From: Mytilus trossulus
Lineage: Eukaryota
Direction of reading: 5' to 3'
Length of the DNA: 64,000 bases
Assembly: GCF_036588685.1 (NCBI RefSeq)
Contig: NC_086380.1
Coordinates: forward strand, 1,488,001 to 1,552,000
Under the pieces are notes generated by a model. It did no database searches. It was not told the origin of the DNA and saw only the letters and a list, made by a program, of their open reading frames with translations. The position numbers and the translations under genes were made by a program. Below are positions 1 through 62,898 of this stretch, one piece after another (position 1 is the stretch's first letter; the number at the start of each line of letters is the position of its first letter).

Positions 1-304
1 CAGCGATGTACTACAGTTTCCTTTACTTTTGAACATTACAGAAGAAAAATTGTGGTCTTGGATAAAGAATTAAATGCATTCCTGTCAGTCAGGGATACTA
101 CTAGTACTATAATACAAGTCATGTTTATTTACTTTTAAGGATAAAAGTTATTTATTTAATTTCAAGGTTTGAATTTTCTTAGAAAAAGTTTTTTTTTACA
201 ACCATTGACAATTATTAAATTCTCAAGTGTGTCATTTTTCATGTTTGCTAATTATCTCACATAGTTCTGCCCTGTAATGGTGTCATTTTAGTGAATATAC
301 TTAC

Positions 305-5255: not shown

Positions 5256-5274
5256 ATCCCACCGCTTGCCACCA
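5256..5274 (-). promoter_or_regulatory. Primer-binding site, tRNA-Leu type (second copy at 7324-7342)
   Basis: TGGTGGCAAGCGGTGGGAT lies 4 nt inside the LTR. It is complementary to the tRNA-Leu 3' end (...AUCCCACCGCUGCCACCA) with a 1-nt insertion. Confidence 0.85.
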
Positions 5275-35800: not shown

Positions 35801-38800
35801 AAATTTCATTATAGTTTCCTTGGCAATTTGTGATAATTTCATTGAAGCAATTTTAATGTTATTTCTAAAGATAAACTGAATTCTACAGAGAAATAGCATC
35901 TTCATATTCATTTCTTAACTGTTAAAAAAAATAATTAATTAAAAAATGTCTTCTGATTAAAATACAAATATATATAATTCCAAAACCAGTAAATATGAAA
36001 ACTTTAACGTAAACCTACCCGACTGAGATTCGTTGACCTTTTGGTGAGAATGTGCAGTAAAGAGCATTTGCTTGCTCAACAACGTATGATGGGTCATTGT
36101 CATCTTCTTCTAAGTCCCAACATCTCACATACCTAAAATATTTAAACAAATAATCGTTATCAATTCTTTTATGTTCCAACATTGCATCTATCTAAATCAC
36201 TTAGGTCTATTCTTCTAACTTAAAATAATTGGGTTTTTTCCAAGAAAATGAGACCACAAATTTCGCTATTAAAGAATTAAAATTCAAAGTCTGCTTTTAC
36301 CAACAAATAGCAGTTCCTTAATTGCTTACACCCACTTCATTTGAACTTTTGATAGTTGGCATTCATACCTCATCTCTTTATTCTTATAATCATTATCATT
36401 TTTCACAGAGACAAAAATTCAGTTTTATAAGATTCGTTGGCCTTTATATTCTGTGTGTGTTTGAATGCCAATTATTCAAACTCTGCGTAAAACTTTCAGT
36501 TCTATATATTAAGAACAAATACCCATCTTTGTTTATAGTATTTAACGATGGACATTTCTTATTAAACTTATATCCAATGTCCCCTTTTGTCCAAATAATA
36601 CAATATTGTTGATTCATTATTTTCGGTGGAACCAATTTTTGTCGATCAAGGAAAACTTGTATTTTCGTAGATTTGACAGTCTGCATATATTCATTCCTTT
36701 AAAAAATTTGTAATTCATTAAACATGTAAATTCATGGTTCCCCTGTACCTACAGATTTGGTATCCAATATTATTAATAATGAATCCACAGTATACAAATG
36801 TCTTACCCATCATCATTAATGGTAAGGACCATCTGACCGTGTGGATGAAATGAGATTCCTCGAATATAAAATTCATTCGCTCCAGCTGCAAATATTGGTC
36901 GGGGAGGAGGGTACATGTGGCTGTAATCAGAAATAGTCAAATAAAAACATTTTATAAAAAAATATACAGGAAAACTATGTAAGAAGTACCATAAAATCTG
37001 TTTTATCCATTTTATGAAAATAGTAGGGGGTCACCTGTTTCATCTTATTTTCAGTAGAAATCAAAAAGAATTTTCAAGTAGCTGCAAAAAGAGTCTTATT
37101 TTGAGATCTTGAGTCAATAATTTTTAATTTCTCAAAAATATTGTTGCTAGAGGATATGTTTTTACATTTATACATTGTATATTAAATGTATCAAACTATG
37201 GAATTTCAAAATAACTCATGAATTATTTTTTTTTATAAAGAACACCCACCAAAGTTCTTGAAGCGACTGTCCTGTATATACATCCCACAATATAACTCTG
37301 GTATCAAAAGATGCAGTAGCTAATAAGGCGCCATCTGGTGAGAAACAACATCCAATAACATCATGGTAATGTCCATGTAAATGAGACGGAGAAAAGTTAT
37401 TCAACAAATCCCATAGTATCACCTGAAAAAGATGGCAAAATGAATTGACTGCTTTTTAAAATAAGTTATGATTGAATTCTAAATAAATTCAAAACAACAA
37501 GTAAAAATAGAGTTTACATGTTTAGACAAAAAGTAATCAAATATCAAAATATCCAAAATATTATATTTATCATTAATTGTTTAGTTCAACACCTTTTTAG
37601 ATCATTTCTATTTTAAGTTGTTGAACTTTAGTTGTTAATGTCTGCTTTATTTGGTCTCTTGATGAGAGTTGTCTCATTGGCAATGATACCACATCTTCTT
37701 TTTTTACATCTCCAGGTAAATTCTAAACACAGAGGGAAATAACAAAAAATCAGGAAAAAAACAATATATTGTGTTGTCTGTTTTAAAACAACAAACGATA
37801 TATTTTGTATCTGATTTAATTAATAATTCTGTGCAATTTTGAAATTTACGATCTGAAGTCCGGAGATCAGTTTCTGTTTTATGACAACATTATAAACCAA
37901 ATGAGCTAAAAGGGGACATTGAACATTTATTATTTGTGCTAATAATTATGATTTATCTCCCCTGAAACTTATCTATTTTGACTGACATATAACTTACAGT
38001 TTTTCCACTGCCAACACTAGCAATCATATCACATTTGGGTGACCATTTCGTATCATACACCCATTTAGTATTGCCTCGCAGTGATTTATACATATTTCCA
38101 TCGTCGTTAAGGTCCCAAAATTTAATAGTTCCATCTCTGGAGCCTGACAAAAGAATAAGGCTTCCATCTGGAGCAAAGTTTAAACTTTTAACGATGTCTT
38201 TATGGTCTTTTAACATAAGGAGAAGTTTGCCTGCAATGATAAAGATTACAGTTTACAGTACACACAAAGTTTAAAAATCACTCTTGCAAATGATGATAAC
38301 GCCAATCATCCTTATAACACATCTTCAAATAGACCGTTCTTAAGCAAATTAAAACATGAGCTCTGCCCGATCAGTTGAAATAACATTGGTAATACACACA
38401 AGATACTTTGCATTCATTTATTTGTGTGGGTATCAATTTTCGTGGATTGCTGAAAACTTACATAGTCTCAATAAACCTATTGAAATTATGTTACCTGATA
38501 AACATTCGAATTTGTTGTTCACCTGTGCCCATGAACCCACTAAATCTGGTATCCAACGAATAATAATGAATCCACAGTAGCTTGAAATTCATAAAAATTG
38601 CAATAAACAGTACATACAGGGTTTTAAACCACAACTACATATTTGTACTAGTGATAATAACAATACATGTAGTAATAAACAGAACACACATATCTGTGAA
38701 ACAGGTGCAATGGCTGTTGATTGAGCAATAACACTCATAATTTTTATGATTTTCAGAATACTGTGGATTGATTTAACTTCATTGGTACCAATTTTTGTTA

Positions 38801-41800
38801 ATTCACTTTCGAGGATATCTAATTTTGTAGTTTTTCCAAAGTCTGTATACAAGACAATGGAAAATTTGTATTTCGTTGAACATTTAAATTGTTGGCACAT
38901 CTGTAACCACAAAATCCACAAAAACTTTTGTAACCAACTAAAAATAATGACTCCACAGTACATAGAGAAATAGTAAATACTGCAATAAAAGAGGCTTCAA
39001 ATGTGTAATTGTGGTCTGTTGAGTATAAACTACTGTGAATTCATTTATTTTTGTGGGTATGATTAAATCAATTTCTGTGGATTGTTGAAAACTTGCATAT
39101 TCATGGATATTTGATTTCGTGGCTCTGCTGATCGTTGTATACACAGCCTCTTTAAAATATGTTGTTCCTTGAACATTTGAATTTGTGGTAAACCTGTACA
39201 CACAATTCCAATAAAAATTGGTTTCCTACGAATAATAATGAATCCACAATATACAGTGAGGGTTTTATTCTTTGCCTTGTTTTGAAGGCATGGTTGGTTG
39301 GTTGCATAAAATTGCTTATATCCACATAATTTGAAATATTGTGGAAAGTTGTCTAATTGGCAATCATACCACATCTCCTTATTCTTATTGTGAGCTTAAT
39401 TATAGTTCTCCTGTACTAATAAATATTGGAACACAGAAGCTTTTTCCGACAATATTTAACATTCACAATTGATTTACGGATAAAATATACAGGTTTCCTA
39501 CATGTATATACACAAGTCTATTACCTGTATTACAGTCCCAAACTTTAATGTTACCATTCTGATGACCAGTGGCTAGTAGCAGACCCTCGTCTACTTTCAA
39601 ATGTTTCCACGTCAAAGTATTATCTCCTTTTGTAGAACCAGATCCAAAGGCAACGGACCAAACAACTTCAACCCCATCTAAAATTCTAGTTGGTCTCTGT
39701 TCATTCTGTTGTTGTAAATTTCCATCTAAATGTAACGTTACATTCTCTGCGTCTTCATATAATAATATATCCTCATTTAACACTCTGTGTGTGGAAATAA
39801 AATAAAATTATATAAAATCAATCATCAAATTAAATGTTATAACAATATAGGAATACCTTTAAAGACGAAGGGAAGGATTATGGTCTCAATAACTTTGTTG
39901 AACCCTGGTCATAGAGCCAGTCCTGAAATAGCATCATTATAATCATTGATAATTGGTTGCTTACTGCCATACTTGACATTTTCTGTATTTTGAGATTATG
40001 AGTTGCAAGTAGTTCTTTGATAGATTTTGTCTAATTTATTGACTCATGACAATCTAGAGCTTTGTTTATTGTACATGCACCTAATTATATAAACATTGTT
40101 GACGTTTGTATTTTGATCTCTAAAGGTTTTTTGGTTGCTTACATCCGCAAAGAGATATTGACATAAAGGAAGTGCAAATTGAGTGTATCTTTTTGATTGC
40201 ATTAAACTATTCTCATTTTCTTTCTAGATCTATATCTGGCCCTAAACAAAAATGTATACTGGTTCTGTGACAATGGACGTCATACAACTATTCATCAGAG
40301 AACAAAATCTTGGATGTAAACAACTAAAACTAGGTCATCATAGCTGATTTTTCATGTTTTCTTTGAACTACACATACCGGTACATGTATATAATATTAAT
40401 CACTCACATTTTGTTTTCTCTGTTATCCCAGGGTACCAGTTCAACCTTTCCTCCACCACATGGCCAAGCAAAATAAGTATTATCTGGTGACCAGGCACAA
40501 GTCTTGGCACCTGACGGGGACCTGGTGGTTCTATGGGTTATAGGTAATGTAAGGGGATGTAACTGTACATCCGTCTGCTTGAGACGTTCTAAAAATAAAA
40601 ATAAACATGATTAATTTGTCTGCCTCATGTCCTCTGTATTCTACTTGAAACAAGCATTATTTTTTTTAATGTGGAATAACTTTGAATTCTGGAAAATTGA
40701 TAAGAAAAGTATGATGAAAACTAAATAGGGTTGCATGCGCACATGGCTCTTAGTTCATACTGAAATATCAGTGAAAGTAAAATTAACCTCTAAGCAGTGT
40801 ATGCATGCTTAACTCTGTTTAAGGTTTAGTTTTCACCATTCATTCTTTTCTATCAATTTTCAGAATTCAAATTATTCCAGATTTTAAGAATTCCTTGTTT
40901 TGAGACGTTCCAAAATTTAAAAAAAACCATGAACATGTGATTCAAATGTACAAAAAAGCAGTTCTATAATATAAGTTAGTTTGTAGTTCACGCTGGACTA
41001 TGAATAATCTTTTATTAAATTGACTTTGTTATACAAGTATATAAGGTCACACTGATCACACAACTGATAAGCCTAGGACAAGGACAATCACTTGTGGTCC
41101 AGTCATTAAACAAATAGAACTTTGACCTCAAATTATTTTCCATTTGAGTTTGGTGTTAACATTCAGGTAAGTCAAATAATATATGTATCCATTGCTCTGT
41201 AAACAATGGTAAATGTCTGTGTATTAAACATGTGTATAACACTAAAATTGGTACATACAAAAGAGAAACTGGTACTCTTTCCTAATATTACACCCCAAAA
41301 ACTTAAACCCTCTAAAACCAAAAACCATGATAACCAGAGTTTTTGAAAAGTGGCAGTCCTCAGGATTTTGCATAGGACTGACACAATTTTAGTATTTTCA
41401 ATAGAATTAATAGTGAGGACCAGCAGATTTTCTCCAAGAACCATCAAGGAAAAAAAGATTCCGCGAAATTCTGAATAACCACTCTAAAATTCTAATCCCT
41501 CACATGCACACCAATATCTCCATTCCTCCTCCCCACGTACACACCAAAATCTGAAAGCCTCCACCTCAATTACACATTAAAATCTTATACCCTCCTCCCC
41601 ACATACAACCCAAAAACTTAAACCCTGTCCTCCTTGTATACCCATTTTAAAACCTTAAACCCTCCACCTCACTTCATGTACTTGCACATCAAAAACTTAA
41701 ACCCTCCAACTCACTTGCACATCAAAAACTTAAACCCTCCAACTCACTTGCATATCGAAAACTTAAACCCTCCAACTCACTTGCACATCAAAAACTTAAA

Positions 41801-45400: not shown

Positions 45401-45720
45401 TTAGTGTCTACAGATTTTTAACTATGTTTTATCGACATAAATAAACAAACACATCTAACATGATAACCTGATATCTTACCAGCAATGTTTTTCTGTTTGT
45501 AGGTAAATGACCGAATTTTTGATTGATACTAAAGTGTTGATTTACTCATTGACACGTGACTAACTTATTGTGCGCTTCAAATAGGTGATTTTTAATGGTT
45601 AACAATCACCGATTTCAGCCGGAAAATTAGCGGTGGTTACCTGAGCGTTTTTTTTATCAGTTAGACGCTTGTAACTAATGTAAATGTATGGCGGTCTCTA
45701 ACGTTCTGACGTAAAACAAG

Positions 45721-48288
45721 ATGCCAACAAGATGTTGTGTCCCAGGATGTTCTGTGAGTGGTGGTCACAAATTCCCTTCAAATCCTGAGCTGTGTCTAAA
45801 GTGGAGGGTTGCCCTAAAAAGATCTGACCCCACCAAAGGTCTATGGAAACCGGGAAAGCACGACATTGTTTGTCATCAACATTTTACAGTAAATGATTAC
45901 AAGGAGACATTATTAGGTAAATTTTGTATGATCTACAGGTAGTTTATTTGCATTCTATTACTCTTAAAATTATCGGCATGCATTATAATGTCAGTAGTTG
46001 GATTTTTAGTGACCAGAAAGTGTTTTAGGGGGTGGAAGGTATACAATTTTTTTTTTTTTTTTTTTTTGTAAAACTAGCAGCATAAATGTATTGATGTATT
46101 AAAATAGCTTTGTATTGATATCAAAAGTTACATCAACTGTCCAAGCCTGTGTTTTACCTTTTCTATCACTATAATGTGTAATTTTTTTTATGAATAGTAT
46201 TTCTTAACACCTGTAAATTAATGTTCAAAGATCATGTATTTGGGCACAATCATTATCACAGCTGACTGACATATTGTTTCTGAATAAAAATATTGTTTTA
46301 GCATGAATTTTTGTGTTTTAAAGTTCGTGTTGCTTTGTGGTTTTGTTTTCCTTTTTTAGGAAGACTGTGCAAGTAAAGAGAATGTGAGTACAGCATTATT
46401 TAATGATAGAATAATATCCTTATCTTTTTAATAATAATATGATCATACATGTACTGTAACAATCAATGGAAAATTGGGATTAAAATAATTTCAGATAAAT
46501 AAAAAATAAATTAACTGTCAACTCCATAAATTGATGTTAATGAGACTTGAGAGTTACAAATGTATGTAAAAAATGTAAGTGGCTCATAATTTAAAATGAG
46601 CTGTTTGTTATCAATGAGTTGTTTTATTACATGAAAGTATCCACTTCAGGTTTCATAAGGCACAAATTGAAATGATTTAAACCTAAGAAATTGCCAACCA
46701 ACTCTACATTGAATACATAAATTATAAAAATAAGCAATTATGCATGATAGTCAAATTACAGCTTCAGCTTTGAGCCTTGACTCACACAACAAAGTTACTT
46801 AATTTGTAAATACATGTACCACCAATTATAGGTCACACCTGCAACATGGAGACTTGGTTTTTGCCATAGATAAACTTACTCAATGTCAGAGTGTGATTGG
46901 ATGTGGAACAAAGATTTCTTGTTTAACCCAATTAAATAAAATCTTAATAAGTCTTATTATTTATAAATGTATGTAAAGTAATACATGTATAGTGCTATCC
47001 CCACTGCAATATAAACAAAAATAATGCAGAATACATGTACAATGTACATGTAGATGGTAGTTATATTGCCAAAATAAAAAAAAAATGGTTTCCAAGCACA
47101 TGTGTGCAATATTTTTAAAATCAGTTTCATGCTTTGTTTCCAGGTGATCGAAGTAGACTAAAGGTAGATGCAGTACCATCAGTGTTTAGCTTTCGTCCCA
47201 AAATAAATATTGTAAGCCCTAGAGCTTTAAGAATGCAATCTAGAAAAGCCATGAGTGTGGACACAGCTCTTAACCAAGGAGTACAACAAGAGGTTGAAAT
47301 TGAGTCAACATCAAATAGTACTGATATTTCCTTACCTTCAGAGCCTGACGTACATGTACCCAAGGACATGCAGATCCAATGCGAGTTACTTGGTCGGTAT
47401 TCGATTGAGAGGTTTATGGACAATCCAAAGGCAGTTTCATTTTATACAGGTTTTAAATCTTATGAACATTTTATGTTCTTATTCCATGCACTAGGTCCTG
47501 CTGCATATGAGCTCAAATATAAATGTTCAACCCTTCATCCATCGGATCAGCTTTTTATAACATTGATTAAACTTAGATGTGCCAAAGAAGATGTAGAGTT
47601 ATCCTTGCTATTTGATTTATCTGTTTCAACCATTGCTAGGATTTTTAATACCTGGATTAACTTCCTTTATTTTCAATTGAATGAATTAAATATTTGGCCA
47701 TCAAGAGACATTGTTGATAAGCATATGCCAGTAGATTTTCATAGAAAATTTCCAAGGACGAGAGTTATTCTTGATGCTACCGAGATTCCTATCCAGAAAT
47801 CTCAAGACGTTAACATTCAGAGTGTGACTTGGTCATCCTACAAGCACAAAAATACTGTGAAAACTATGGTCGGGTGTACCCCAAGAGGTGCTATATCCTA
47901 TATTTCAGACTGCTATGGGGGATCTACCAGTGACAGGCAGATTATTGAAGACTCAAGTCTTTTAGATAATACCAGGTTTGAATCTGGGGATAGTATAATG
48001 GCGGATCGAGGCATAATGGTTCAAGACCTCTTTGCAAACAACGATGTGTATGTTAATACGCCTACAATGCTGAAAGGAAAATCACAACTAGAGCCAGAAG
48101 AAATTGTGAGGGATAGACGTGTTGCATCCAAGCGTATCCATATAGAACGTGTTATAGGATTAGCCAAACGTTTTAAAATTCTTAAGTCCGAACTTCCAAA
48201 CACCAAACTGTCATTAAGTAACAGAATTGTATTTGTTTGTTTTGCATTGACAAATTTCAAAAATGCAATTGTTGATAAATTTGCCTAG
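45721..48288 (+). CDS. THAP-HTH-DDE transposase, 446 aa (exons 45721-45916, 47144-48288)
   Basis: THAP domain CCVPGC..HKFP..W..VCHQHF..LKVDAVPSVF is split by the intron. HTH region DQLFITLIKLR..LSVSTIARIF. Catalytic motifs VILDATE, MADRG and RIHIERVIG. Confidence 0.93.
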
Positions 48289-48659
48289 ATTTTCAAAGGG
48301 TCCCATTTTTATATTTATATTGTAATTTAACCAAAGATAGTAAAATTGGCCTTATTTTCATAGTTCTAAAGTATACTCCTGAGATGTATCCACTAATTAC
48401 AAAAAATGTAATTATACTTTTTAACTAATTTTGGCGTGTGATAAATACATGTATGACATTTTCGGTACCTAATGCTCTTATTTCTTTGAGTATGTTTAAT
48501 TATTTTTTTATCAAGTTCAGCATTATTGGAGGAAAAGAGGGGGGATGTCATGAATTGAGAATTATCCATAAAAAGAGGGGGGGGGCTTCAATTGATTATA
48601 AATCAGAAGGGAGATAACAAATTAAACAATATAAAGTCTCAATAATTTTATTAATTTTT

Positions 48660-49662
48660 TTATAGTATTGAGGCAATATATGGCCTAAAGTGTTTGGAGT
48701 AAAACAATTCCATCTTTGGCAGCAGACAACCAACACAGTAGTCATGATTAATTCCAATTTTCTCAACAAAGAGGTCTTTGAATGTGTACACAATAAAATA
48801 ACAATGTTCTCTATTTGATAAAAATAGTTGACCCTGAATTTGGTCATAATAGTTTGATGATTTTTTTAATGTTATATTGTTATCTTTGTCATATTCCAAG
48901 AAAGAAAAATTAACACCTGGAACAATGCTCTCATCTCGTCCTGTATATGGACACTTCACCTCCACAACACAATCATCTCCAATTAAAGCGTCAGGGGAAG
49001 CTCCAAGAAATGGTTTGTCAGCAGATATAAACAGTCCACATGGTTGACATTTCATTTGAAACTTTTTTTCAAACTGTGTTATTGCCTTCTGCTCATACAT
49101 TTTACCATGCAATACAGACTTCACCTTTAAGAACTTTTGGGAACACAATGATTCACATAATTTTTGTATATTTCTCCTTGTGGTAATTTTTGAAATTTCT
49201 CCAAATCTAGATGCTGTAATCCTCCACTGTCTTAAATAAAACCATTTCTTATTGCTGGATTGTCCTCTTGACTCCTTTTCAGCCAATTTTGCCTGCTGTT
49301 CTGTAACCTAAAATAGTAGTGAAATCAGTATAAAATCTTGACGTTAAGAAATTTCCAACCTGTAAATGAAGAAAGCAGTTTTTTTTAATTTTTATATAGT
49401 TAAAAGATCTTAAAAGATTTCTAATATAGTTTATAAGATATATCTCATATAGTTTATAAGATATATCTCATATAGTTCATAAGATATCTCATAAAAATAA
49501 TATATGAGATATATCTTATAAACTATATTAAGATATTATAAACTACATAAGATATCCTATAAACTATGTAATATATCTTTAATATACACTATATAAGATA
49601 TATTAGACATTATATAAGATATCTTATAAACTATGTATATGATATCTCATATAGTTTATAAG

Positions 49663-49694
<32 letters not shown>

Positions 49695-52600
49695 CATGTA
49701 AGATAAGATTTATAAGATAACATAATTGATTATTTTTTATATATAAAGATAATTTATATAGTTTATAGGATATTTCATGAATTCAAGCAATCCTTTTTAT
49801 TTTATTCAGAAATAGAAACATTTATCCAATCATAAGATGTTTTTTTTATTGAAATACAAGTATTTTGGACCTAGGTACTGAATACACAGTCAAACATGTT
49901 TATAAAAGTGTGGAAACTATTCTGTTTTGAAAATTAAGTGAATAAAAACTGAATTATTTAGAGTACAACAATGATCAGTAAATTTTATGGTTAGTGGTAC
50001 CCTATATGCTATATGAAAGCTGAATATTTCTTATTTAGTGCTTATGAATTGTTAAACTTTAGCGTAAAAATATTTAAGGGTTTTTATAGATTAATATTTA
50101 TTGTACATGACCAGATATTTTGGAGTTTCCTTGTATTGGCAATGATTTACATATAAATTGATGAATCTTTCATCTTACCAGTAAAGCTCTATCGACCCAA
50201 TATTCAGCAAATGGTAATGGCAGGTAGGCATGATCAAGCTGGGCAGTCTGAAATACAAATTCAAAACTATATTAAAGAAGCCATGTGCATATAAAATCAA
50301 ACTACAATGCACATGATTTGAATTATTTTTTAAACATGGAGTTATCTACCTTTGACTAACAAAATTTATATCGATATACTACATACATTGTATTACAGTC
50401 AATTTGACAATATGAAAACTCAAGGCTACTTGCTTTCTTTACTTGATATATAGTTTTTTGGATTATTTAATACCAGTTACTTGAATTTACAAGAACAGTG
50501 TCATGTTTAAAAATAGAAAGGCAAGGTAAATTTTCCAAAAATCAAGAACATGCAAACTTTTTGTCTTTATTATGTGTATGATTCAAATAGGTTTATTAAT
50601 ATATATGACTATGTGAGTGTATAAGTTGTTAATGTTGTTTATTGTTAATTTTATTCTTTGTATTACCTTAAATTTGTTAATTCTATTTAAAATTAAAATA
50701 TTTTTCAAGTTTTTCTTGTTAACCATCAACTTCCATTGTACCTGTATATCAGCTGCAGGAAAAATATATCTCAGTGTAAGGTCTTGAGAAGATTGAGAGC
50801 AGAAGTTAATCATGGTGTTTCTGACATGGTCTGTAAACCCTTCCATATTTCTGTATTTCTGTGGTCTTGGGTCTTCTAATATTTCAGTTGGTTTTCTTTT
50901 AGCCAATTTTTCAATTTTCACTGGAGCACCTAAAATATTAAATAATTAAAAATGAACGAAAACAAGAGACAAAAACTCTAGTCAGAGGCATGGCGGAGAT
51001 ATTTTTTCTGAACCTTGACATGTTTCCATATATATGTTTAACTTTTTAGAACAATAATGACGTAAAACTTCTTGTACTGTTGATTTACGGTGGGACATAA
51101 GATATAAAGAAATGAAACTTGTTTATTCTCTCAATTCTTTGGTTATATAAATGGCTTTTACAGACAGTCAGTTAAAAGAAGTTACCATTGTAATATGTCT
51201 TTGGTTGTTGAAAAGTTTGTAGACCTTCTGTACATGACTTCTGTATTGAAATTTCTCCAGTATTAGAAAAAACATCAGCCATTAACAGCACTGCAGCTAC
51301 ATGCTTGCAGGTGGCGTTGGGACCCTTTCCTGCTGGACATTCACACTTAGAATTAACTGGGCTGCCAGATTTGTCAAGTTTGATGTGATAGTTGTAAGTT
51401 ACCTGCAAATAAAAAAAATAAGTGAAGCTTAATTTTAAAAACAAATCAGATGATTTTATTTGAGCATATATTGGTTTGGCAGAGCATTCACTCAATAAAA
51501 GTAAACTGAAAGAGATACAATAATGGTTATTGAAAAAGTATTACAGAGTATAATCATGAAAATTGGAAAACATGAAGCAGAAATCAATAACACTTATTTC
51601 ATCTTAGACATGGTTTGAGTTAAGCCTTTTTCATCTGATTTTTATGGTTCGTTCTTATGTTGTACTGTTATACCACTGTTTCAGGTTAGGGGAGGGATGG
51701 GATCCTGCCAAAATTTTTAACCTAACCACATTTTTTATGTATATGCCTGACCCAAGTCTGTAATTCAGTGGTTGTCGTTTGTTTTTCAATCATTTTTTTA
51801 TATAAACAAGGCTGACAGTTTTCTCATTTGAATTGTTTTACATTGTCTTATGGGATACTTTAATTACTTTTATAGCTGACTATGCAGTATGGGCTTTGCT
51901 CATTGTTGAAGGATGTACGGTGACCTATAGTTGTTGATGTCTGTGTAATTTTGGTCTTTTGTGGATAGTTGTCTCATTGGAAATCATACCACATCTTCTT
52001 TTTTTTGTATTATTTTCTCAAATAGAATATTCCACATTTAAGTTATAACACACGTTATATAAATGTTATAAGGATGGGACAAAACTGTTAATGATGCAAA
52101 CCTGTTTTTTCATGGCTGCCCCAACAATACCACTTAGGAAAATACCATCAACAAGGATAAGTACAGAACAAGCTAAGATTTTTTTCGCTTGTAGCAAATC
52201 TCTGCCTTTCTCCAATGCCTTTATGTCGCCATTCACCTGCTTATCACCTGTAAAAATAACAACATATATAAATAATATATAAATGATTTTAGGATTTTTA
52301 AATGAACATTTACTGGTGACAATTACAGAATTGTTTTAATATGGACGCCACTTTATTTTCAAAATGGTATTTTATATAGTTCGACTAAATCAAAATCTAT
52401 CATTATGTACCTTGTTTAAACACTTTTAATTTATTTACATTATGAGACATGATTGGCAAATGCAATATGTTTGTTTGGTAACTTTCACTTTAAAATACTT
52501 TACCACCATGGAGATACTAACCTGCTAATCTAAATAAAAAATAGCCATCAATTTGCTCTCTGGTTACTTTAGAAAATACCAATCTGTGATCTGCTATAAG

Positions 52601-53437
52601 CTGCTTATATCCATGTTTTGGCCATTCTATGTCTGTAGCTTCTGGAATTTCTATGAGGGGTGGTTTGAAGTTGTGATTTCTGTCATATGCAACCAGTCTA
52701 TAAGCATAATTATTAGTGTGTGAATTCAAAATTAAAACAATTTATTTCTATGTAATAATTAGGACATTTAAAATTTTTTTTTTTTATTTGGTTAAACTTT
52801 TGTTGCGAAGAATTTTAAAATATTTTATTATATTGATACTGTATCATACAGTATAAAAACAAGGATTTTTTTGCATGTTATTGTTTTGTTTATAAGTTTC
52901 ACAGGCCCTTGATTCTTTCACTTTCTATCCATGTTATTTAATAATATAAGAACATGGAAAGTAGACCTTCCAACTGATAGAAATAAGTGCATGTGATAAG
53001 ATTGTTCTATATTTCAACTTAATCAAATTGTTAAAAAAAGTACCCCTTTTAAGACCAAAAAAAAAGAAAAACGATTGACAAAATATCAATTCCAATTAAA
53101 CAAAATTATACTTCAGACATTTCCGCTTCTTTTGGTGCCAAGTTCATCAAAATCTAACATGGAATACCAAAAAAATATACTTTATATGAAATGTATACAA
53201 CAACTAAAAATTGACTATTACGTTTGTAAGTTATGACGTTTTTTCCACATACTCACTGTACTGTGGCAGACTTTAAAGTCGTTAGTATCCCATAAAATAT
53301 TGTGCAATTGACATGATTTAAGTCATCATATACCTATCAATCAGATCTGCCTTTCTGCCTGTGATTACTGCACCCTTAATACTCAGTTCTGCCTTCAATT
53401 TCGGGACGGTCCACAGAGGGTATTTTGCCGCCGCCAT
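48660..53437 (-). CDS. SAP-SWIM-YqaJ (lambda-exonuclease-like) protein, 515 aa; exons 53437-53334, 52697-52522, 52247-52102, 51402-51186, 50929-50742, 50247-50179, 49307-48660
   Basis: Seven exons join in frame (1548 nt). SAP motif WTVPKLKAELSIKGAVITGRKADLIDRL; SWIM motif CECPAGKGPNATCKH; YqaJ motifs RITASRFG, HGKMYE, GASPD, EVKCP and YYDQIQGQL. Confidence 0.9.
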
Positions 53438-53669
53438 AGTTTACATTAGATACAAGCGTCTCATTGAAAATAAAACGCACGCGTAACCACCGCTAACGTT
53501 TATGCGGATCCGACTTGTAAAATTACGTGATTGTTAACCAATTTTGGTTAACAATCACCGATTTCAGCCGGAAAATTAGCGGTGGTTACCTGAGCGTTTT
53601 TTTTATCAGTTAGACGCTTGTAACTAATGTAAATGTATGGCGGTCTCTAACGTTCTGACGTAAAACAAG

Positions 53670-56237
53670 ATGCCAACAAGATGTTGTGTCCCAGGATGTT
53701 CTGTGAGTGGTGGTCACAAATTCCCTTCAAATCCTGAGCTGTGTCTAAAGTGGAGGGTTGCCCTAAAAAGATCTGACCCCACCAAAGGTCTATGGAAACC
53801 GGGAAAGCACGACATTGTTTGTCATCAACATTTTACAGTAAATGATTACAAGGAGACATTATTAGGTAAATTTTGTATGATCTACAGGTAGTTTATTTGC
53901 ATTCTATTACTCTTAAAATTATCGGCATGCATTATAATGTCAGTAGTTGGATTTTTAGTGACCAGAAAGTGTTTTAGGGGGTGGAAGGTATACAAATTTT
54001 TTTTTTTTTTTTTTTTGTAAAACTAGCAGCATAAATGTATTGATGTATTAAAATAGCTTTGTATTGATATCAAAAGTTACATCAACTGTCCAAGCCTGTG
54101 TTTTACCTTTTCTATCACTATAATGTGTAATTTTTTTTATGAATAGTATTTCTTAACACCTGTAAATTAATGTTCAAAGATCATGTATTTGGGCACAATC
54201 ATTATCACAGCTGACTGACATATTGTTTCTGAATAAAAATATTGTTTTAGCATGAATTTTTGTGTTTTAAAGTTCGTGTTGCTTTGTGGTTTTGTTTTCC
54301 TTTTTTAGGAAGACTGTGCAAGTAAAGAGAATGTGAGTACAGCATTATTTAATGATAGAATAATATCCTTATCTTTTTAATAATAATATGATCATACATG
54401 TACTGTAACAATCAATGGAAAATTGGGATTAAAATAATTTCAGATAAATAAAAAATAAATTAACTGTCAACTCCATAAATTGATGTTAATGAGACTTGAG
54501 AGTTACAAATGTATGTAAAAAATGTAAGTGGCTCATAATTTAAAATGAGCTGTTTGTTATCAATGAGTTGTTTTATTACATGAAAGTATCCACTTCAGGT
54601 TTCATAAGGCACAAATTGAAATGATTTAAACCTAAGAAATTGCCAACCAACTCTACATTGAATACATAAATTATAAAAATAAGCAATTATGCATGATAGT
54701 CAAATTACAGCTTCAGCTTTGAGCCTTGACTCACACAACAAAGTTACTTAATTTGTAAATACATGTACCACCAATTATAGGTCACACCTGCAACATGGAG
54801 ACTTGGTTTTTGCCATAGATAAACTTACTCAATGTCAGAGTGTGATTGGATGTGGAACAAAGATTTCTTGTTTAACCCAATTAAATAAAATCTTAATAAG
54901 TCTTATTATTTATAAATGTATGTAAAGTAATACATGTATAGTGCTATCCCCACTGCAATATAAACAAAAATAATGCAGAATACATGTACAATGTACATGT
55001 AGATGGTAGTTATATTGCCAAAATAAAAAAAAAATGGTTTCCAAGCACATGTGTGCAATATTTTTAAAATCAGTTTCATGCTTTGTTTCCAGGTGATCGA
55101 AGTAGACTAAAGGTAGATGCAGTACCATCAGTGTTTAGCTTTCGTCCCAAAATAAATATTGTAAGCCCTAGAGCTTTAAGAATGCAATCTAGAAAAGCCA
55201 TGAGTGTGGACACAGCTCTTAACCAAGGAGTACAACAAGAGGTTGAAATTGAGTCAACATCAAATAGTACTGATATTTCCTTACCTTCAGAGCCTGACGT
55301 ACATGTACCCAAGGACATGCAGATCCAATGCGAGTTACTTGGTCGGTATTCGATTGAGAGGTTTATGGACAATCCAAAGGCAGTTTCATTTTATACAGGT
55401 TTTAAATCTTATGAACATTTTATGTTCTTATTCCATGCACTAGGTCCTGCTGCATATGAGCTCAAATATAAATGTTCAACCCTTCATCCATCGGATCAGC
55501 TTTTTATAACATTGATTAAACTTAGATGTGCCAAAGAAGATGTAGAGTTATCCTTGCTATTTGATTTATCTGTTTCAACCATTGCTAGGATTTTTAATAC
55601 CTGGATTAACTTCCTTTATTTTCAATTGAATGAATTAAATATTTGGCCATCAAGAGACATTGTTGATAAGCATATGCCAGTAGATTTTCATAGAAAATTT
55701 CCAAGGACGAGAGTTATTCTTGATGCTACCGAGATTCCTATCCAGAAATCTCAAGACGTTAACATTCAGAGTGTGACTTGGTCATCCTACAAGCACAAAA
55801 ATACTGTGAAAACTATGGTCGGGTGTACCCCAAGAGGTGCTATATCCTATATTTCAGACTGCTATGGGGGATCTACCAGTGACAGGCAGATTATTGAAGA
55901 CTCAAGTCTTTTAGATAATACCAGGTTTGAATCTGGGGATAGTATAATGGCGGATCGAGGCATAATGGTTCAAGACCTCTTTGCAAACAACGATGTGTAT
56001 GTTAATACGCCTACAATGCTGAAAGGAAAATCACAACTAGAGCCAGAAGAAATTGTGAGGGATAGACGTGTTGCATCCAAGCGTATCCATATAGAACGTG
56101 TTATAGGATTAGCCAAACGTTTTAAAATTCTTAAGTCCGAACTTCCAAACACCAAACTGTCATTAAGTAACAGAATTGTATTTGTTTGTTTTGCATTGAC
56201 AAATTTCAAAAATGCAATTGTTGATAAATTTGCCTAG
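53670..56237 (+). CDS. THAP-HTH-DDE transposase, copy 2 (exons 53670-53865, 55093-56237)
   Basis: ORF-track translation is identical to copy 1. Confidence 0.93.
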
Positions 56238-56608
56238 ATTTTCAAAGGGTCCCATTTTTATATTTATATTGTAATTTAACCAAAGATAGTAAAATTGGCC
56301 TTATTTTCATAGTTCTAAAGTATACTCCTGAGATGTATCCACTAATTACAAAAAATGTAATTATACTTTTTAACTAATTTTGGCGTGTGATAAATACATG
56401 TATGACATTTTCGGTACCTAATGCTCTTATTTCTTTGAGTATGTTTAATTATTTTTTTATCAAGTTCAGCATTATTGGAGGAAAAGAGGGGGGATGTCAT
56501 GAATTGAGAATTATCCATAAAAAGAGGGGGGGGGCTTCAATTGATTATAAATCAGAAGGGAGATAACAAATTAAACAATATAAAGTCTCAATAATTTTAT
56601 TAATTTTT

Positions 56609-57611
56609 TTATAGTATTGAGGCAATATATGGCCTAAAGTGTTTGGAGTAAAACAATTCCATCTTTGGCAGCAGACAACCAACACAGTAGTCATGATTAA
56701 TTCCAATTTTCTCAACAAAGAGGTCTTTGAATGTGTACACAATAAAATAACAATGTTCTCTATTTGATAAAAATAGTTGACCCTGAATTTGGTCATAATA
56801 GTTTGATGATTTTTTTAATGTTATATTGTTATCTTTGTCATATTCCAAGAAAGAAAAATTAACACCTGGAACAATGCTCTCATCTCGTCCTGTATATGGA
56901 CACTTCACCTCCACAACACAATCATCTCCAATTAAAGCGTCAGGGGAAGCTCCAAGAAATGGTTTGTCAGCAGATATAAACAGTCCACATGGTTGACATT
57001 TCATTTGAAACTTTTTTTCAAACTGTGTTATTGCCTTCTGCTCATACATTTTACCATGCAATACAGACTTCACCTTTAAGAACTTTTGGGAACACAATGA
57101 TTCACATAATTTTTGTATATTTCTCCTTGTGGTAATTTTTGAAATTTCTCCAAATCTAGATGCTGTAATCCTCCACTGTCTTAAATAAAACCATTTCTTA
57201 TTGCTGGATTGTCCTCTTGACTCCTTTTCAGCCAATTTTGCCTGCTGTTCTGTAACCTAAAATAGTAGTGAAATCAGTATAAAATCTTGACGTTAAGAAA
57301 TTTCCAACCTGTAAATGAAGAAAGCAGTTTTTTTTAATTTTTATATAGTTAAAAGATCTTAAAAGATTTCTAATATAGTTTATAAGATATATCTCATATA
57401 GTTTATAAGATATATCTCATATAGTTCATAAGATATCTCATAAAAATAATATATGAGATATATCTTATAAACTATATTAAGATATTATAAACTACATAAG
57501 ATATCCTATAAACTATGTAATATATCTTTAATATACACTATATAAGATATATTAGACATTATATAAGATATCTTATAAACTATGTATATGATATCTCATA
57601 TAGTTTATAAG

Positions 57612-57643
<32 letters not shown>

Positions 57644-60600
57644 CATGTAAGATAAGATTTATAAGATAACATAATTGATTATTTTTTATATATAAAGATA
57701 ATTTATATAGTTTATAGGATATTTCATGAATTCAAGCAATCCTTTTTATTTTATTCAGAAATAGAAACATTTATCCAATCATAAGATGTTTTTTTTATTG
57801 AAATACAAGTATTTTGGACCTAGGTACTGAATACACAGTCAAACATGTTTATAAAAGTGTGGAAACTATTCTGTTTTGAAAATTAAGTGAATAAAAACTG
57901 AATTATTTAGAGTACAACAATGATCAGTAAATTTTATGGTTAGTGGTACCCTATATGCTATATGAAAGCTGAATATTTCTTATTTAGTGCTTATGAATTG
58001 TTAAACTTTAGCGTAAAAATATTTAAGGGTTTTTATAGATTAATATTTATTGTACATGACCAGATATTTTGGAGTTTCCTTGTATTGGCAATGATTTACA
58101 TATAAATTGATGAATCTTTCATCTTACCAGTAAAGCTCTATCGACCCAATATTCAGCAAATGGTAATGGCAGGTAGGCATGATCAAGCTGGGCAGTCTGA
58201 AATACAAATTCAAAACTATATTAAAGAAGCCATGTGCATATAAAATCAAACTACAATGCACATGATTTGAATTATTTTTTAAACATGGAGTTATCTACCT
58301 TTGACTAACAAAATTTATATCGATATACTACATACATTGTATTACAGTCAATTTGACAATATGAAAACTCAAGGCTACTTGCTTTCTTTACTTGATATAT
58401 AGTTTTTTGGATTATTTAATACCAGTTACTTGAATTTACAAGAACAGTGTCATGTTTAAAAATAGAAAGGCAAGGTAAATTTTCCAAAAATCAAGAACAT
58501 GCAAACTTTTTGTCTTTATTATGTGTATGATTCAAATAGGTTTATTAATATATATGACTATGTGAGTGTATAAGTTGTTAATGTTGTTTATTGTTAATTT
58601 TATTCTTTGTATTACCTTAAATTTGTTAATTCTATTTAAAATTAAAATATTTTTCAAGTTTTTCTTGTTAACCATCAACTTCCATTGTACCTGTATATCA
58701 GCTGCAGGAAAAATATATCTCAGTGTAAGGTCTTGAGAAGATTGAGAGCAGAAGTTAATCATGGTGTTTCTGACATGGTCTGTAAACCCTTCCATATTTC
58801 TGTATTTCTGTGGTCTTGGGTCTTCTAATATTTCAGTTGGTTTTCTTTTAGCCAATTTTTCAATTTTCACTGGAGCACCTAAAATATTAAATAATTAAAA
58901 ATGAACGAAAACAAGAGACAAAAACTCTAGTCAGAGGCATGGCGGAGATATTTTTTCTGAACCTTGACATGTTTCCATATATATGTTTAACTTTTTAGAA
59001 CAATAATGACGTAAAACTTCTTGTACTGTTGATTTACGGTGGGACATAAGATATAAAGAAATGAAACTTGTTTATTCTCTCAATTCTTTGGTTATATAAA
59101 TGGCTTTTACAGACAGTCAGTTAAAAGAAGTTACCATTGTAATATGTCTTTGGTTGTTGAAAAGTTTGTAGACCTTCTGTACATGACTTCTGTATTGAAA
59201 TTTCTCCAGTATTAGAAAAAACATCAGCCATTAACAGCACTGCAGCTACATGCTTGCAGGTGGCGTTGGGACCCTTTCCTGCTGGACATTCACACTTAGA
59301 ATTAACTGGGCTGCCAGATTTGTCAAGTTTGATGTGATAGTTGTAAGTTACCTGCAAATAAAAAAAATAAGTGAAGCTTAATTTTAAAAACAAATCAGAT
59401 GATTTTATTTGAGCATATATTGGTTTGGCAGAGCATTCACTCAATAAAAGTAAACTGAAAGAGATACAATAATGGTTATTGAAAAAGTATTACAGAGTAT
59501 AATCATGAAAATTGGAAAACATGAAGCAGAAATCAATAACACTTATTTCATCTTAGACATGGTTTGAGTTAAGCCTTTTTCATCTGATTTTTATGGTTCG
59601 TTCTTATGTTGTACTGTTATACCACTGTTTCAGGTTAGGGGAGGGATGGGATCCTGCCAAAATTTTTAACCTAACCACATTTTTTATGTATATGCCTGAC
59701 CCAAGTCTGTAATTCAGTGGTTGTCGTTTGTTTTTCAATCATTTTTTTATATAAACAAGGCTGACAGTTTTCTCATTTGAATTGTTTTACATTGTCTTAT
59801 GGGATACTTTAATTACTTTTATAGCTGACTATGCAGTATGGGCTTTGCTCATTGTTGAAGGATGTACGGTGACCTATAGTTGTTGATGTCTGTGTAATTT
59901 TGGTCTTTTGTGGATAGTTGTCTCATTGGAAATCATACCACATCTTCTTTTTTTTGTATTATTTTCTCAAATAGAATATTCCACATTTAAGTTATAACAC
60001 ACGTTATATAAATGTTATAAGGATGGGACAAAACTGTTAATGATGCAAACCTGTTTTTTCATGGCTGCCCCAACAATACCACTTAGGAAAATACCATCAA
60101 CAAGGATAAGTACAGAACAAGCTAAGATTTTTTTCGCTTGTAGCAAATCTCTGCCTTTCTCCAATGCCTTTATGTCGCCATTCACCTGCTTATCACCTGT
60201 AAAAATAACAACATATATAAATAATATATAAATGATTTTAGGATTTTTAAATGAACATTTACTGGTGACAATTACAGAATTGTTTTAATATGGACGCCAC
60301 TTTATTTTCAAAATGGTATTTTATATAGTTCGACTAAATCAAAATCTATCATTATGTACCTTGTTTAAACACTTTTAATTTATTTACATTATGAGACATG
60401 ATTGGCAAATGCAATATGTTTGTTTGGTAACTTTCACTTTAAAATACTTTACCACCATGGAGATACTAACCTGCTAATCTAAATAAAAAATAGCCATCAA
60501 TTTGCTCTCTGGTTACTTTAGAAAATACCAATCTGTGATCTGCTATAAGCTGCTTATATCCATGTTTTGGCCATTCTATGTCTGTAGCTTCTGGAATTTC

Positions 60601-61386
60601 TATGAGGGGTGGTTTGAAGTTGTGATTTCTGTCATATGCAACCAGTCTATAAGCATAATTATTAGTGTGTGAATTCAAAATTAAAACAATTTATTTCTAT
60701 GTAATAATTAGGACATTTAAAATTTTTTTTTTTTATTTGGTTAAACTTTTGTTGCGAAGAATTTTAAAATATTTTATTATATTGATACTGTATCATACAG
60801 TATAAAAACAAGGATTTTTTTGCATGTTATTGTTTTGTTTATAAGTTTCACAGGCCCTTGATTCTTTCACTTTCTATCCATGTTATTTAATAATATAAGA
60901 ACATGGAAAGTAGACCTTCCAACTGATAGAAATAAGTGCATGTGATAAGATTGTTCTATATTTCAACTTAATCAAATTGTTAAAAAAAGTACCCCTTTTA
61001 AGACCAAAAAAAAAGAAAAACGATTGACAAAATATCAATTCCAATTAAACAAAATTATACTTCAGACATTTCCGCTTCTTTTGGTGCCAAGTTCATCAAA
61101 ATCTAACATGGAATACCAAAAAAATATACTTTATATGAAATGTATACAACAACTAAAAATTGACTATTACGTTTGTAAGTTATGACGTTTTTCCCACATA
61201 CTCACTGTACTGTGGCAGACTTTAAAGTCGTTAGTATCCCATAAAATATTGTGCAATTGACATGATTTAAGTCATCATATACCTATCAATCAGATCTGCC
61301 TTTCTGCCTGTGATTACTGCACCCTTAATACTCAGTTCTGCCTTCAATTTCGGGACGGTCCACAGACGGTATTTTGCCGCCGCCAT
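56609..61386 (-). CDS. SAP-SWIM-YqaJ protein, copy 2 (exons offset +7949; residue 7 is Arg instead of Pro)
   Basis: Same exon structure as copy 1; codon 7 is CGT instead of CCT. Confidence 0.9.
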
Positions 61387-62898
61387 AGTTTACATTAGAT
61401 ACAAGCGTCTCATTGAAAATAAAACGCACGCGTAACCACCGCTAACGTTTATGCGGATCCGACTTGTAAAATTACGTGATTGTTAACCATTTAATCTACA
61501 CCATTTCTTCTGTGAATTTGTTTACTTACCCCAATCTGGAATACTGTGTGTTTATTGCTTATTTTATCAACGAAATCCACTAAATAATTGATCAAGAGAT
61601 GAACACACTACAGATCAAAACTTTGGCACGTACTGGTTTCCTGTTCATAGTCCCTTATCATCCTTATCTCATGATGCAACACATTCCACAGAGTAAACTT
61701 GGGGGTGTGTTCGTTGTGACCTTGAACGATATTCTCCATCGTGACACTTTTCGTGTTCTACTTTTTTGGGGGTATACTGGATATCACGTTTTCGTTTTTT
61801 TTCAACAATAAAATTAACGTTTCTATTCTTTATAAACTTTCTGATTAAATGTTTTACTTTGTTCCCACTAATCTTTATTTTAATTTATTTTTATGTAATA
61901 TGTTGTTGTTTGTTTTGTTTGGTTTTTTTTGGGTTTTTTTTTTTGGGGGGGGGGGTTCTAAGACCAGTACATGAGACTACTAAACTCCGTTTGACTTTTT
62001 TGTGTTGAAGTCAAAAGGAAAACATTCTTCTCGGCCAGACGGGATTTTAGGAAGAATCCACGAAACATTAGATTGCAAAAAGTGTTCCGAAGATTTCTGA
62101 ACACAAGAGCTCGCTGAAGACGGATCGTTCTCATTATAAAGTTAGAAAAAAATGTAGGATTGCAAATGAGATGACAACCCACATTGATATACCAGTACAG
62201 TGTTACAGTGTAATTTTGCATAAACATTCCTATTTGAACTTTTATAAAGAAAGGCTTTTATTTTATTTAATATTTGAATTTTTTCTTCAAAAGAAAATCA
62301 TTTTGTAGTTTTGTTACAATTAACTGCACAGTTAATTTATTCTTTGTTATATTAAGAAATTGTTAAGAACATATTAAGAATTCCTTTTTCCTTTGTCATA
62401 TCTTAAGTGACAGATTTTATTACATAAGATCGTCTCACACTTTTTTGTCCAAAATAGGTGTAAATTCTTTGCTAATCAAAATATCTTTGTATACAATATT
62501 TGCAATTAAGTTCCTACATCTCCAAGCAATTTAGTGGATAATCCTAATACGTGGTAACTTTAACTTTTGCCGTGTTACCATGGATTAATAAGAAGAATCG
62601 GATTCCGATTGCAGTAAATACAAACTATTCTCACTGAGTAATCAGATTTGGTTATTGTCAGGCCTGTCAAAAGACTTTTGCGAACAATTAAGTCTATCTT
62701 GCCACAGCTTTACTGATCATAAGTCAATTCCACACTTGTATCTTTCTGGCACGTACCCTCTTCTCAAGCTCTGCAAAATTCGTACACCCAAAAGTCAAGT
62801 TTGACACGACGAAAACAAATTTGAAACAGTTCAAATAAAATGACCATATATATATATATATGTAGAGTTGTCACTGACTCAGACGTACTTATAAATAT

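What the first reader, a model, noticed from the sequence alone, without database searches (positions are those of the whole stretch)
48660..53437. Intact 7-exon SAP + SWIM + lambda-exonuclease partner gene in a young transposon
Seen: the ORF track shows only fragments, but the exons splice into an uninterrupted 515-aa protein. It has an N-terminal SAP DNA-binding motif (exon 1, missed by the ORF track), a CxC-x8-CxH SWIM finger and a complete PD-(D/E)xK YqaJ domain. Known: ISL2EU elements carry a YqaJ gene, but to my knowledge its function is unresolved. Inference: this is a DNA-tethered 5'-3' resection nuclease that processes transposon or donor ends. With an intact transposase and TIRs, this is a probably active two-component system suitable for reconstitution.
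Basis: partly seen in the sequence, partly recalled or inferred. Interest (0 to 1): 0.7.

Follow-up and report, generated by a model that had tools for sequence, protein, structure and literature searches.

The report
Intact ISL2EU transposon pair with nuclease
This is the intact, spliced second gene of an already described two-gene jumping element (ISL2EU) in a mussel, here present as two copies joined head to tail; it encodes a predicted DNA-end-chewing enzyme that likely trims the breaks left when the element jumps, a role that is still untested.

Summary
Observation confirmed. Seven GT-AG exons give a 515-aa SAP–SWIM–YqaJ protein. All six introns are skipped in contigs of two public, probably RNA, runs. 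The gene faces a 446-aa THAP–HTH–DDE transposase in a 7,943-bp element with 13-bp TIRs and an AT target duplication: a new member of the described ISL2EU group. The scan has found this kind in other genomes before. Lambda-exonuclease fold, catalytic residues and 5'-phosphate pocket are intact. Purifying selection is strong: 13 synonymous to 2 replacement changes between subfamilies. So the nuclease is very probably needed, but its step is inferred; I favour chewing the donor-side strand at transposase cuts (0.45). Not in the finding: the element is a head-to-tail dimer whose 6-bp joint is not the target duplication, and a second ISL2EU family in this genome has a similar dimer. Caveats: the productive transposase splice was not seen, and transcripts cannot be tied to this copy.

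The parts
45597..53539 (+). ISL2EU element, copy 1 (7,943 bp)
   Evidence: TIR positions and comparison with 7 other genome copies
53546..61488 (+). ISL2EU element, copy 2, head to tail; 3 differences from copy 1; same seven exons at +7,949, open frame
53540..53545 (.). 6-bp joint (AATTTT) between the two copies; not the AT target duplication
   Evidence: only such joint of this family in G000
45595..45596 (.). left AT target duplication (flank ends AAT)
   Evidence: empty paralogous site
61489..61490 (.). right AT target duplication around the whole dimer (flank begins ATT)
45597..45609 (+). left 13-bp TIR; an imperfect mirror of the right end runs on for about 100 bp
53527..53539 (-). right 13-bp TIR of copy 1; the partner's start codon lies at the inner edge of the ~100-bp mirrored block
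53334..53437 (-). partner exon 1, SAP domain (aa 1-35)
   Evidence: Pfam PF02037; SAP folds; junction in X1, X4, X5
52522..52697 (-). partner exon 2 (end of SAP, linker, start of SWIM-associated fold)
52102..52247 (-). partner exon 3 (helix and beta-sheet before the SWIM finger)
51186..51402 (-). partner exon 4, SWIM zinc finger C162/C164/C174/H176
   Evidence: Pfam PF04434; ligands in 49 of 53 aligned proteins
50742..50929 (-). partner exon 5, mostly low-confidence linker
50179..50247 (-). partner exon 6 (69 nt)
48660..49307 (-). partner exon 7, lambda-exonuclease (YqaJ) domain; D406, E416, K418; pocket W322, R326, S333
45721..45916 (+). transposase exon 1, THAP domain
   Evidence: Pfam PF05485
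47144..48288 (+). transposase exon 2, HTH_Tnp_4 + DDE_Tnp_4 (D276, D353, E400 invariant in 68 of 68)
46360..46383 (+). candidate frame-breaking cassette exon in the transposase intron (in-frame stop)
   Evidence: its donor spliced to exon 2 in one contig of X6; its acceptor use not seen

Best explanation
The gene is the intact, spliced second gene of a young ISL2EU cut-and-paste transposon, and its protein is predicted to be a lambda-exonuclease-type 5'-to-3' nuclease that likely chews the donor-side DNA strand at the cuts made by the element's own transposase. Shown: gene structure, splicing in the family, domain order, intact catalytic and 5'-phosphate-pocket residues, purifying selection, tight pairing with the transposase. 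Predicted: metal-dependent digestion from a 5'-phosphate. Inferred: the transposase nick at each 3' end leaves a 5'-phosphate on the flanking donor strand; SAP (DNA) and the SWIM module (protein contact) would hold the nuclease there; digestion away from the element would expose the uncut strand for release and leave 3' tails that send the donor break into homologous repair from the sister chromatid, restoring the donor copy so that copy number rises.
For: Fold: best matches LHK-Exo (Z 18.7, rmsd 2.4, 175 aligned) and lambda exonuclease (Z 17.8, rmsd 3.2, 198 aligned); Foldseek agrees. By the alignment, W322/R326/S333/E372/S404/D406/E416/K418 sit on lambda W24/R28/S35/E85/S117/D119/E129/K131; R28 is central to the 5'-phosphate pocket (PMC5888420, passages). 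Eight key nuclease residues are present in 52 of 53 aligned relatives, so the substrate is likely an existing 5'-phosphate end. Selection: 13 synonymous, 2 replacement changes fixed between two subfamilies (pN/pS 0.04, p 1e-7) and 15:9 among private changes (p 1e-5), against 5:1 and 6:8 for the transposase. Pairing: 32 of 37 transposase hits with at least 45% identity have a convergent YqaJ hit within 10 kb, chance about 0.002 each. Termini are exact in 9 of 9 full-length copies, which points away from the element's own ends as substrate.
Against: No activity, binding or footprint data. Domain orientation is not determined (pTM 0.50). Lambda exonuclease works as a trimer on free duplex ends; loading at a nick and the oligomeric state are untested. 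The sister group Spy mostly has no partner (PMC4122938, passages), so the related transposase chemistry can run without one. Related Harbinger elements excise precisely (109 of 110 in yeast, PMC2836001), which needs no resection. The two dimer joints (AATTTT, TATT) are not what fill-in of a flank overhang would give. 67 of 148 transposase hits have no YqaJ hit within 10 kb (a ceiling set partly by search depth). The pN/pS counts have no correction for transition bias.
Confidence: 0.45

Rival explanations
1. The partner is a subunit of a heteromeric transposase that itself cuts or trims the non-transferred (5') strand at the element ends, as the restriction-enzyme-like subunit of Tn7 does.
For: [quoted passage not shown] Selection as strong as on the transposase suits a core subunit. 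The SWIM region matches the SWIM region of ZSWIM8 (Z 10.1, rmsd 2.3, 101 aligned), which organises a protein assembly there (PMC13083262, passages). Harbinger's partner binds its transposase (PMC2836001).
Against: The conserved 5'-phosphate pocket fits an exonuclease better than a site-specific endonuclease. The best fold matches are exonucleases. Sister-group Spy elements mostly have a single gene.
Confidence: 0.22
2. The partner is needed mainly as a DNA- and transposase-binding scaffold, like the Myb-like protein of Harbinger; nuclease activity is secondary.
For: Both Harbinger proteins are required, and the partner binds the ends and the transposase. SAP and SWIM are binding modules. Another family in this genome carries a weak PHD-finger match at the C-terminus instead (E 4e-4, below cut-off), so the tether varies.
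Against: Catalytic residues are invariant in 53 of 53 (D406, E416, K418). This transposase has its own THAP and HTH domains.
Confidence: 0.13
3. The nuclease acts away from the cut, for example destroying abortive excised copies or host silencing RNA, as herpesvirus alkaline nucleases also cut RNA.
For: Herpesvirus alkaline nucleases are fold relatives (EBV enzyme Z 14.8; a KSHV SOX-RNA complex). Other transposon lineages carry unrelated accessory nucleases of unknown role (PMC9587614, passages).
Against: Closer to phage DNA exonucleases than to herpes enzymes (E 2.5e-23 against 0.25). A SAP domain suits DNA. A diffusible anti-host factor would be less tightly selected in each lineage (inference).
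Confidence: 0.1
4. The gene is a passenger or decaying relic without a role in transposition.
For: One sister copy has the catalytic change E416K and one has a broken partner frame; 5 of 37 close transposase hits lack a nearby YqaJ hit.
Against: Purifying selection, conserved pairing in the genome, neighbouring gene-model numbers for the pair in a brachiopod and a ribbon worm, and YqaJ partners in 13 rows of Han 2015 Table S2.
Confidence: 0.04

Closest known systems
[quoted passage not shown] IS4EU-1_BF, IS4EU-2_DR, oyster ISL2EU-10_CGi (Han et al. 2015, PMC4482050; Han et al. 2014, PMC4122938)
   Same: AT duplication in an A|AT|T target, GG termini, short TIRs, THAP-HTH-DDE transposase, second gene with YqaJ domain; partners of 512 and 515 aa are listed for lancelet and zebrafish; function stated as unknown.
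   Different: Longer (7.9 kb against a mean of about 4.8 kb) because of six partner introns. SAP and SWIM are not named in the passages and supplements searched. Head-to-tail dimers are not mentioned in the passages read.
Lambda exonuclease / YqaJ family (lambda Exo, LHK-Exo, mimivirus R354, herpes alkaline nucleases)
   Same: Fold, PD-(D/E)xK residues and 5'-phosphate pocket.
   Different: Fused to SAP and SWIM; no annealing-protein gene beside it; trimer and activity untested.
PIF/Harbinger two-protein systems (Ping/Pong, Harbinger3_DR)
   Same: Related DDE_Tnp_4 transposase plus a separate second gene.
   Different: Their partner is a Myb/SANT DNA-binding protein and the duplication is 3 bp; here the partner is a nuclease and the transposase has THAP.
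Tn7 heteromeric transposase (TnsA + TnsB)
   Same: A DDE enzyme paired with a PD-(D/E)xK-type nuclease (analogy).
   Different: The Tn7 subunit is a restriction-like endonuclease; this one keeps an exonuclease pocket. No homology or binding shown.
KolobokE (PMC9587614)
   Same: DNA transposon with a lambda-exonuclease-like nuclease of unknown role.
   Different: Different transposase superfamily, TTAA duplication, nuclease encoded downstream of the transposase domain.
Tandem transposon dimers by double insertion (McGurk and Barbash, bioRxiv 10.1101/158386)
   Same: Head-to-tail full-length copies with intact inner TIRs.
   Different: There the joint is the target duplication; here it is 6 bp (and 4 bp in a second family) and is not the 2-bp duplication.

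Membership tests
ISL2EU | 2-bp AT target duplication, target A|AT|T | tested here: met
   AAT left and ATT right in 7 of 7 single copies and at the outer ends of the dimer; paralogous empty site equals both flanks minus 2 bp, with 2 substitutions at the site
ISL2EU | TIRs of 6-259 bp, usually beginning GG | tested here: met
   13-bp perfect TIR beginning GG
ISL2EU | THAP + HTH + DDE transposase with the PHIS motif D..K..D..D..P..R(3)E | tested here: met
   Pfam THAP, HTH_Tnp_4, DDE_Tnp_4; D276, K305, D353, P372, R396, E400 in 68 of 68; motif
ISL2EU | Second gene with YqaJ exonuclease domain | tested here: met
ISL2EU | Placement in the ISL2EU clade of a DDE tree with Repbase references | not tested
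Lambda exonuclease / YqaJ | Fold and PD-(D/E)xK catalytic residues | tested here: met
   Z 18.7 and 17.8; D406, E416, K418 invariant in 53 of 53
Lambda exonuclease / YqaJ | 5'-phosphate-binding pocket (W24, R28, S35, S117 equivalents) | tested here: met
   W322, R326, S333 invariant, S404 S or T in 53 of 53; mapping
Lambda exonuclease / YqaJ | Ring-shaped trimer | not tested
   no oligomer model was made
Lambda exonuclease / YqaJ | Processive 5'-to-3' digestion of duplex DNA | not testable with these tools
   needs biochemistry
Tn7-type heteromeric transposase | Nuclease subunit binds the DDE subunit and cuts the non-transferred strand | not testable with these tools
   no model of the pair was obtained; needs biochemistry
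Spy | No target duplication; mostly one gene; no THAP | tested here: not met
   2-bp duplication, two genes, THAP present
KolobokE | TTAA duplication; nuclease downstream of a Kolobok transposase domain | tested here: not met
   AT duplication; separate convergent gene; DDE_Tnp_4 transposase
Double-insertion tandem dimer | Joint equals the target duplication | tested here: not met
   joint AATTTT here, TATT in the C5 dimer, against an expected AT

The most novel reading that the evidence does not exclude
ISL2EU elements use a two-enzyme transposase, a eukaryotic counterpart of Tn7's, in which the SAP-SWIM-YqaJ nuclease frees the second strand; and the head-to-tail dimers with short non-target joints, seen in two unrelated families of this genome, are fossils of an end-to-end joined (circle or sister-chromatid) intermediate of that pathway.
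Probability: 0.13. Interest if true: 0.78.

Novelty: new member of a known kind. Interest (0 to 1): 0.42.

Why it matters
Why ISL2EU elements carry a phage-type exonuclease is stated as unknown in the paper that defines the group, and I found no later test in the library searched. This family offers natural, unreconstructed parts: both genes open in 7 of 9 full-length copies, RNA-supported partner splicing, known ends and target. That makes the question directly testable in a cell assay. If the nuclease steers donor repair or frees the second strand, it would be a transposition step not yet described for eukaryotic cut-and-paste elements. The kind itself is ordinary and common: dozens of such gene pairs occur in this genome alone.

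Tried and rejected
1) First splice attempts had off-by-one boundaries; corrected. 2) A complex prediction of transposase with partner returned no model: no verdict, binding stays open. 3) No run was on record as RNA ('no RNA holder listed'); splicing rests on intron-skipping contigs. 4) The dimer joint was not bridged by any listed contig in 4 other runs; they showed other flanks, so the joint has no support outside this assembly, and absence in contigs proves nothing. 5) Deriving the joint from the target: rejected, because the empty paralogous site leaves no room for it. Fill-in of flank overhangs predicts ATT...AAT, not seen. Hairpin-derived or untemplated bases fit only in part; n = 2. 6) The two substitutions at the empty paralogous site (2 of 23 in 1,336 aligned bases; nearest others at -328 and +93) could be a footprint, but equal length and higher divergence of the paralogue favour ordinary variation. 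7) A three-copy cluster on C6 is a degenerate segmental repeat without clear element-bounded units; not counted. 8) False tandem by assembly: not excluded, but 3 differences, exact ends and a novel joint argue against. 9) My automatic TIR finder failed on most other families, so their ends were not defined. 10) No nuclear-localisation pattern matched the partner with a simple motif; uninformative. 11) Han 2015 Figure S2 (their proposed mechanism) is a picture and gave only its title; Repbase reports could not be searched and may already name SAP or SWIM.
Full report
Observation. The gene is there as described. Seven minus-strand exons between 53437 and 48660, all with GT/AG sites, give 1,548 nt and 515 aa with one terminal stop (earlier tries had boundary slips). 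Pfam finds SAP in exon 1, SWIM in exon 4 and YqaJ in exon 7, and nothing in exons 2, 3, 5 and 6. The SWIM spacing is CxC-x9-CxH. An NCBI gene model of 515 aa, labelled Mytilus trossulus by its source, differs at 3 residues, so the host is very likely a mussel. Contigs of four coded runs, guessed to be RNA, skip exactly the predicted introns: 6 of 6 in X1 and X4, 4 of 6 in X5, 2 of 6 in X6. This shows splicing in the family, not of this copy: three runs read the Arg7 allele, while this copy has a private Pro7. No listed contig spans all seven exons.

The element. The gene faces a 446-aa THAP-HTH-DDE transposase (45721-45916 + 47144-48288; database model P0121 differs at 1 residue). The element runs 45597-53539, with 13-bp TIRs and an imperfect mirror of about 100 bp that ends at the partner's start codon. 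A second copy follows head to tail at 53546-61488 with 3 differences. Exact end patterns found seven further full-length copies in G000: five at 98.3-98.9% and two at about 95% identity, all with AAT on the left and ATT on the right. Two more copies are truncated or fragmented. Both frames are open in 7 of the 9 full-length copies; one of the seven has E416K in the nuclease site. Other runs show other flanks at the ends, consistent with recent movement. Against full activity: the productive transposase splice is not among the listed joints (14 were not shown), while one contig splices an upstream donor at 46383 to exon 2. That donor belongs to a 22- or 24-nt candidate exon whose splice sites are kept in 9 of 9 copies and which breaks the frame in either length.

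The protein. An AlphaFold model on 53 hand-picked relatives (of 120 listed, 267 found; chosen for length and leaning to full-length models) has mean pLDDT 84 but pTM 0.50: three firm domains on loose linkers. Residues about 300-515 match LHK-Exo (Z 18.7, rmsd 2.4, 175 aligned) and lambda exonuclease (Z 17.8, rmsd 3.2, 198 aligned); residues 1-47 match SAP folds; residues 73-193 match the SWIM region of ZSWIM8 (Z 10.1, rmsd 2.3, 101 aligned), which organises a protein assembly in that ligase (PMC13083262, passages). The profile alignment places W322, R326, S333, E372, S404, D406, E416 and K418 on lambda W24, R28, S35, E85, S117, D119, E129 and K131 (lambda numbering read from that alignment). 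R28 is central to the 5'-phosphate pocket (PMC5888420, passages). Eight key residues are all present in 52 of 53 relatives and the four SWIM ligands in 49 of 53. Pfam scores SAP in 18 and SWIM in 16 of 53; many models lack exon 1. Relatives come from molluscs, a brachiopod, a ribbon worm, tunicates and insects.

Is it needed? Between the two subfamilies the partner has 13 synonymous and 2 replacement fixed changes (pN/pS 0.04, p 1e-7 against neutral site counts, no transition correction); private changes are 15:9; the transposase gives 5:1 and 6:8. Coding divergence is 1.1% against about 4% non-coding. In G000, 32 of 37 transposase hits with at least 45% identity have a convergent YqaJ hit within 10 kb; over all hits 71 of 148 are convergent, 10 divergent and 67 unpaired (148 of 150 and 116 of 124 rows used, split or duplicate fragments dropped; the searches scored 150 of 356 and 150 of 224 candidates). 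The partner is therefore part of the element's machinery.

Mechanism. The pocket points to an existing 5'-phosphate as substrate. A DDE nick at the element's 3' end leaves one on the flanking donor strand (established chemistry; PMC5714172, passages), and full excision leaves them on donor and element ends. Exact termini in 9 of 9 copies make the element's own ends the less likely substrate. I therefore favour digestion of the donor-side strand, which would help release the element and push the break into homologous repair, restoring the donor copy (0.45). Rivals are a Tn7-like second-strand cutter (0.22), a Harbinger-like scaffold (0.13; PMC2836001, passages), action away from the cut (0.10) and a passenger (0.04). 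None is tested by activity data.

The dimer. One AT duplication surrounds both copies. A paralogous stretch about 100 kb away is empty and equals both flanks minus 2 bp, with two substitutions at the site, so the 6-bp joint is not target DNA. The two copies share 21 substitutions absent from the other seven, so they come from one parent. A second, unrelated ISL2EU family has a head-to-tail dimer on C5 (99.4% identical units, outer AT duplication, joint TATT; a single sister on C7). Double insertion predicts the duplication as joint (bioRxiv 10.1101/158386, passages); neither joint fits. Both joints begin with the three bases that end the left flank, then extra T; with two cases this is only a lead. 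Joining of a right end to a left end of sister chromatids, or a circle, would explain the layout (inference; short flank-derived spacers in circular intermediates are described for bacterial IS families in PMC9587614, passages). The joint is not confirmed outside the assembly.

Known or new. ISL2EU is defined by an A|AT|T target, GG termini, a THAP-HTH-DDE transposase and a YqaJ gene of unknown function (PMC4482050, passages and Table S2 rows; PMC4122938, passages; PMC9179366, passage). Every feature tested is met; tree placement was not tested. Listed partners include 512 and 515 aa. SAP and SWIM were not found for ISL2EU in searches or in the texts searched, but database names carry them and Repbase reports were out of reach. 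PMC11304231 (active Spy) and PMC3744419 (alternative transposition) were seen only as search listings. The scan's own notes report the same gene pair in several other genomes.

Verdict. Real, intact and well suited to test an open question, but a new member of a described kind. The dimers with odd joints are the one unexpected feature. Interest 0.42.

Noticed in passing
window 53540-53545; G000 C5:75,792,081-75,804,140 (L025, L026): Two unrelated ISL2EU families each have a head-to-tail dimer with intact inner ends and a joint that is not the AT duplication (AATTTT; TATT).
   Followed up: partly
window 46360-46383: Candidate frame-breaking cassette exon in the transposase intron, splice sites kept in 9 of 9 copies; inclusion would give a THAP-only product or a decay target, a possible self-limiting switch. 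Donor use seen in one contig.
   Followed up: partly
window 45688-45714: An 8-codon upstream frame ends 6 bases before the transposase start; its ATG mirrors the partner's start codon at the other end and is kept in 9 of 9 copies. The shared ATGGCG resembles a YY1-type promoter motif (recalled), so the mirrored ends may be twin inward promoters.
   Followed up: partly
L025:7532-8857 (minus): The partner of the C5 family ends in a PHD-finger-like segment (Pfam E 4e-4, below cut-off), suggesting that the tether varies around a SWIM + YqaJ core.
   Followed up: partly
G000 C8:1,633,123-1,643,608 (L045-L048): A ~10-kb paralogue (87-97% identity by block) of the flanks, empty of the element, with two substitutions within 5 bp of the insertion point; may be a duplication or a second haplotype.
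   Followed up: partly
L020 (G000 C5:68.60 Mb): Sister copy with open frames but the catalytic change E416K: a natural nuclease-dead allele.
   Followed up: no
window 48288-48660: The two genes converge 371 bp apart, and the first poly(A)-like signals on each strand (48621 plus; 48647 and 48495 minus) suggest overlapping 3' ends and possible double-stranded RNA.
   Followed up: no
window 49396-49776 and 51616-52010: Intron 6 holds an AT-rich, partly palindromic minisatellite; intron 3 holds a very abundant host repeat also found at 37632, 39312, 42747 and 44462.
   Followed up: no
window 37953-40610 (minus); 19277-21991 (plus); 257-565 (minus): Host exons: a WD40-repeat gene, an Es2-family nuclear protein gene, and a short frame that looks like a DZIP3/HEPN-type exon (recalled, untested).
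   Followed up: no
window 3711-8218: Three near-identical ~2.07-kb units with strong C-over-G skew, a tandem repeat.
   Followed up: no
L031:275-1925: A 1.65-kb non-autonomous-looking element with GGTTAA-starting TIRs and AAT/ATT flanks, possibly mobilised by an ISL2EU family.
   Followed up: no
P0043, P0045, P0058, P0065-P0067 and others: Many YqaJ relatives are fused to PF20700 (Mutator-like transposase), a second transposon lineage using the same nuclease.
   Followed up: no
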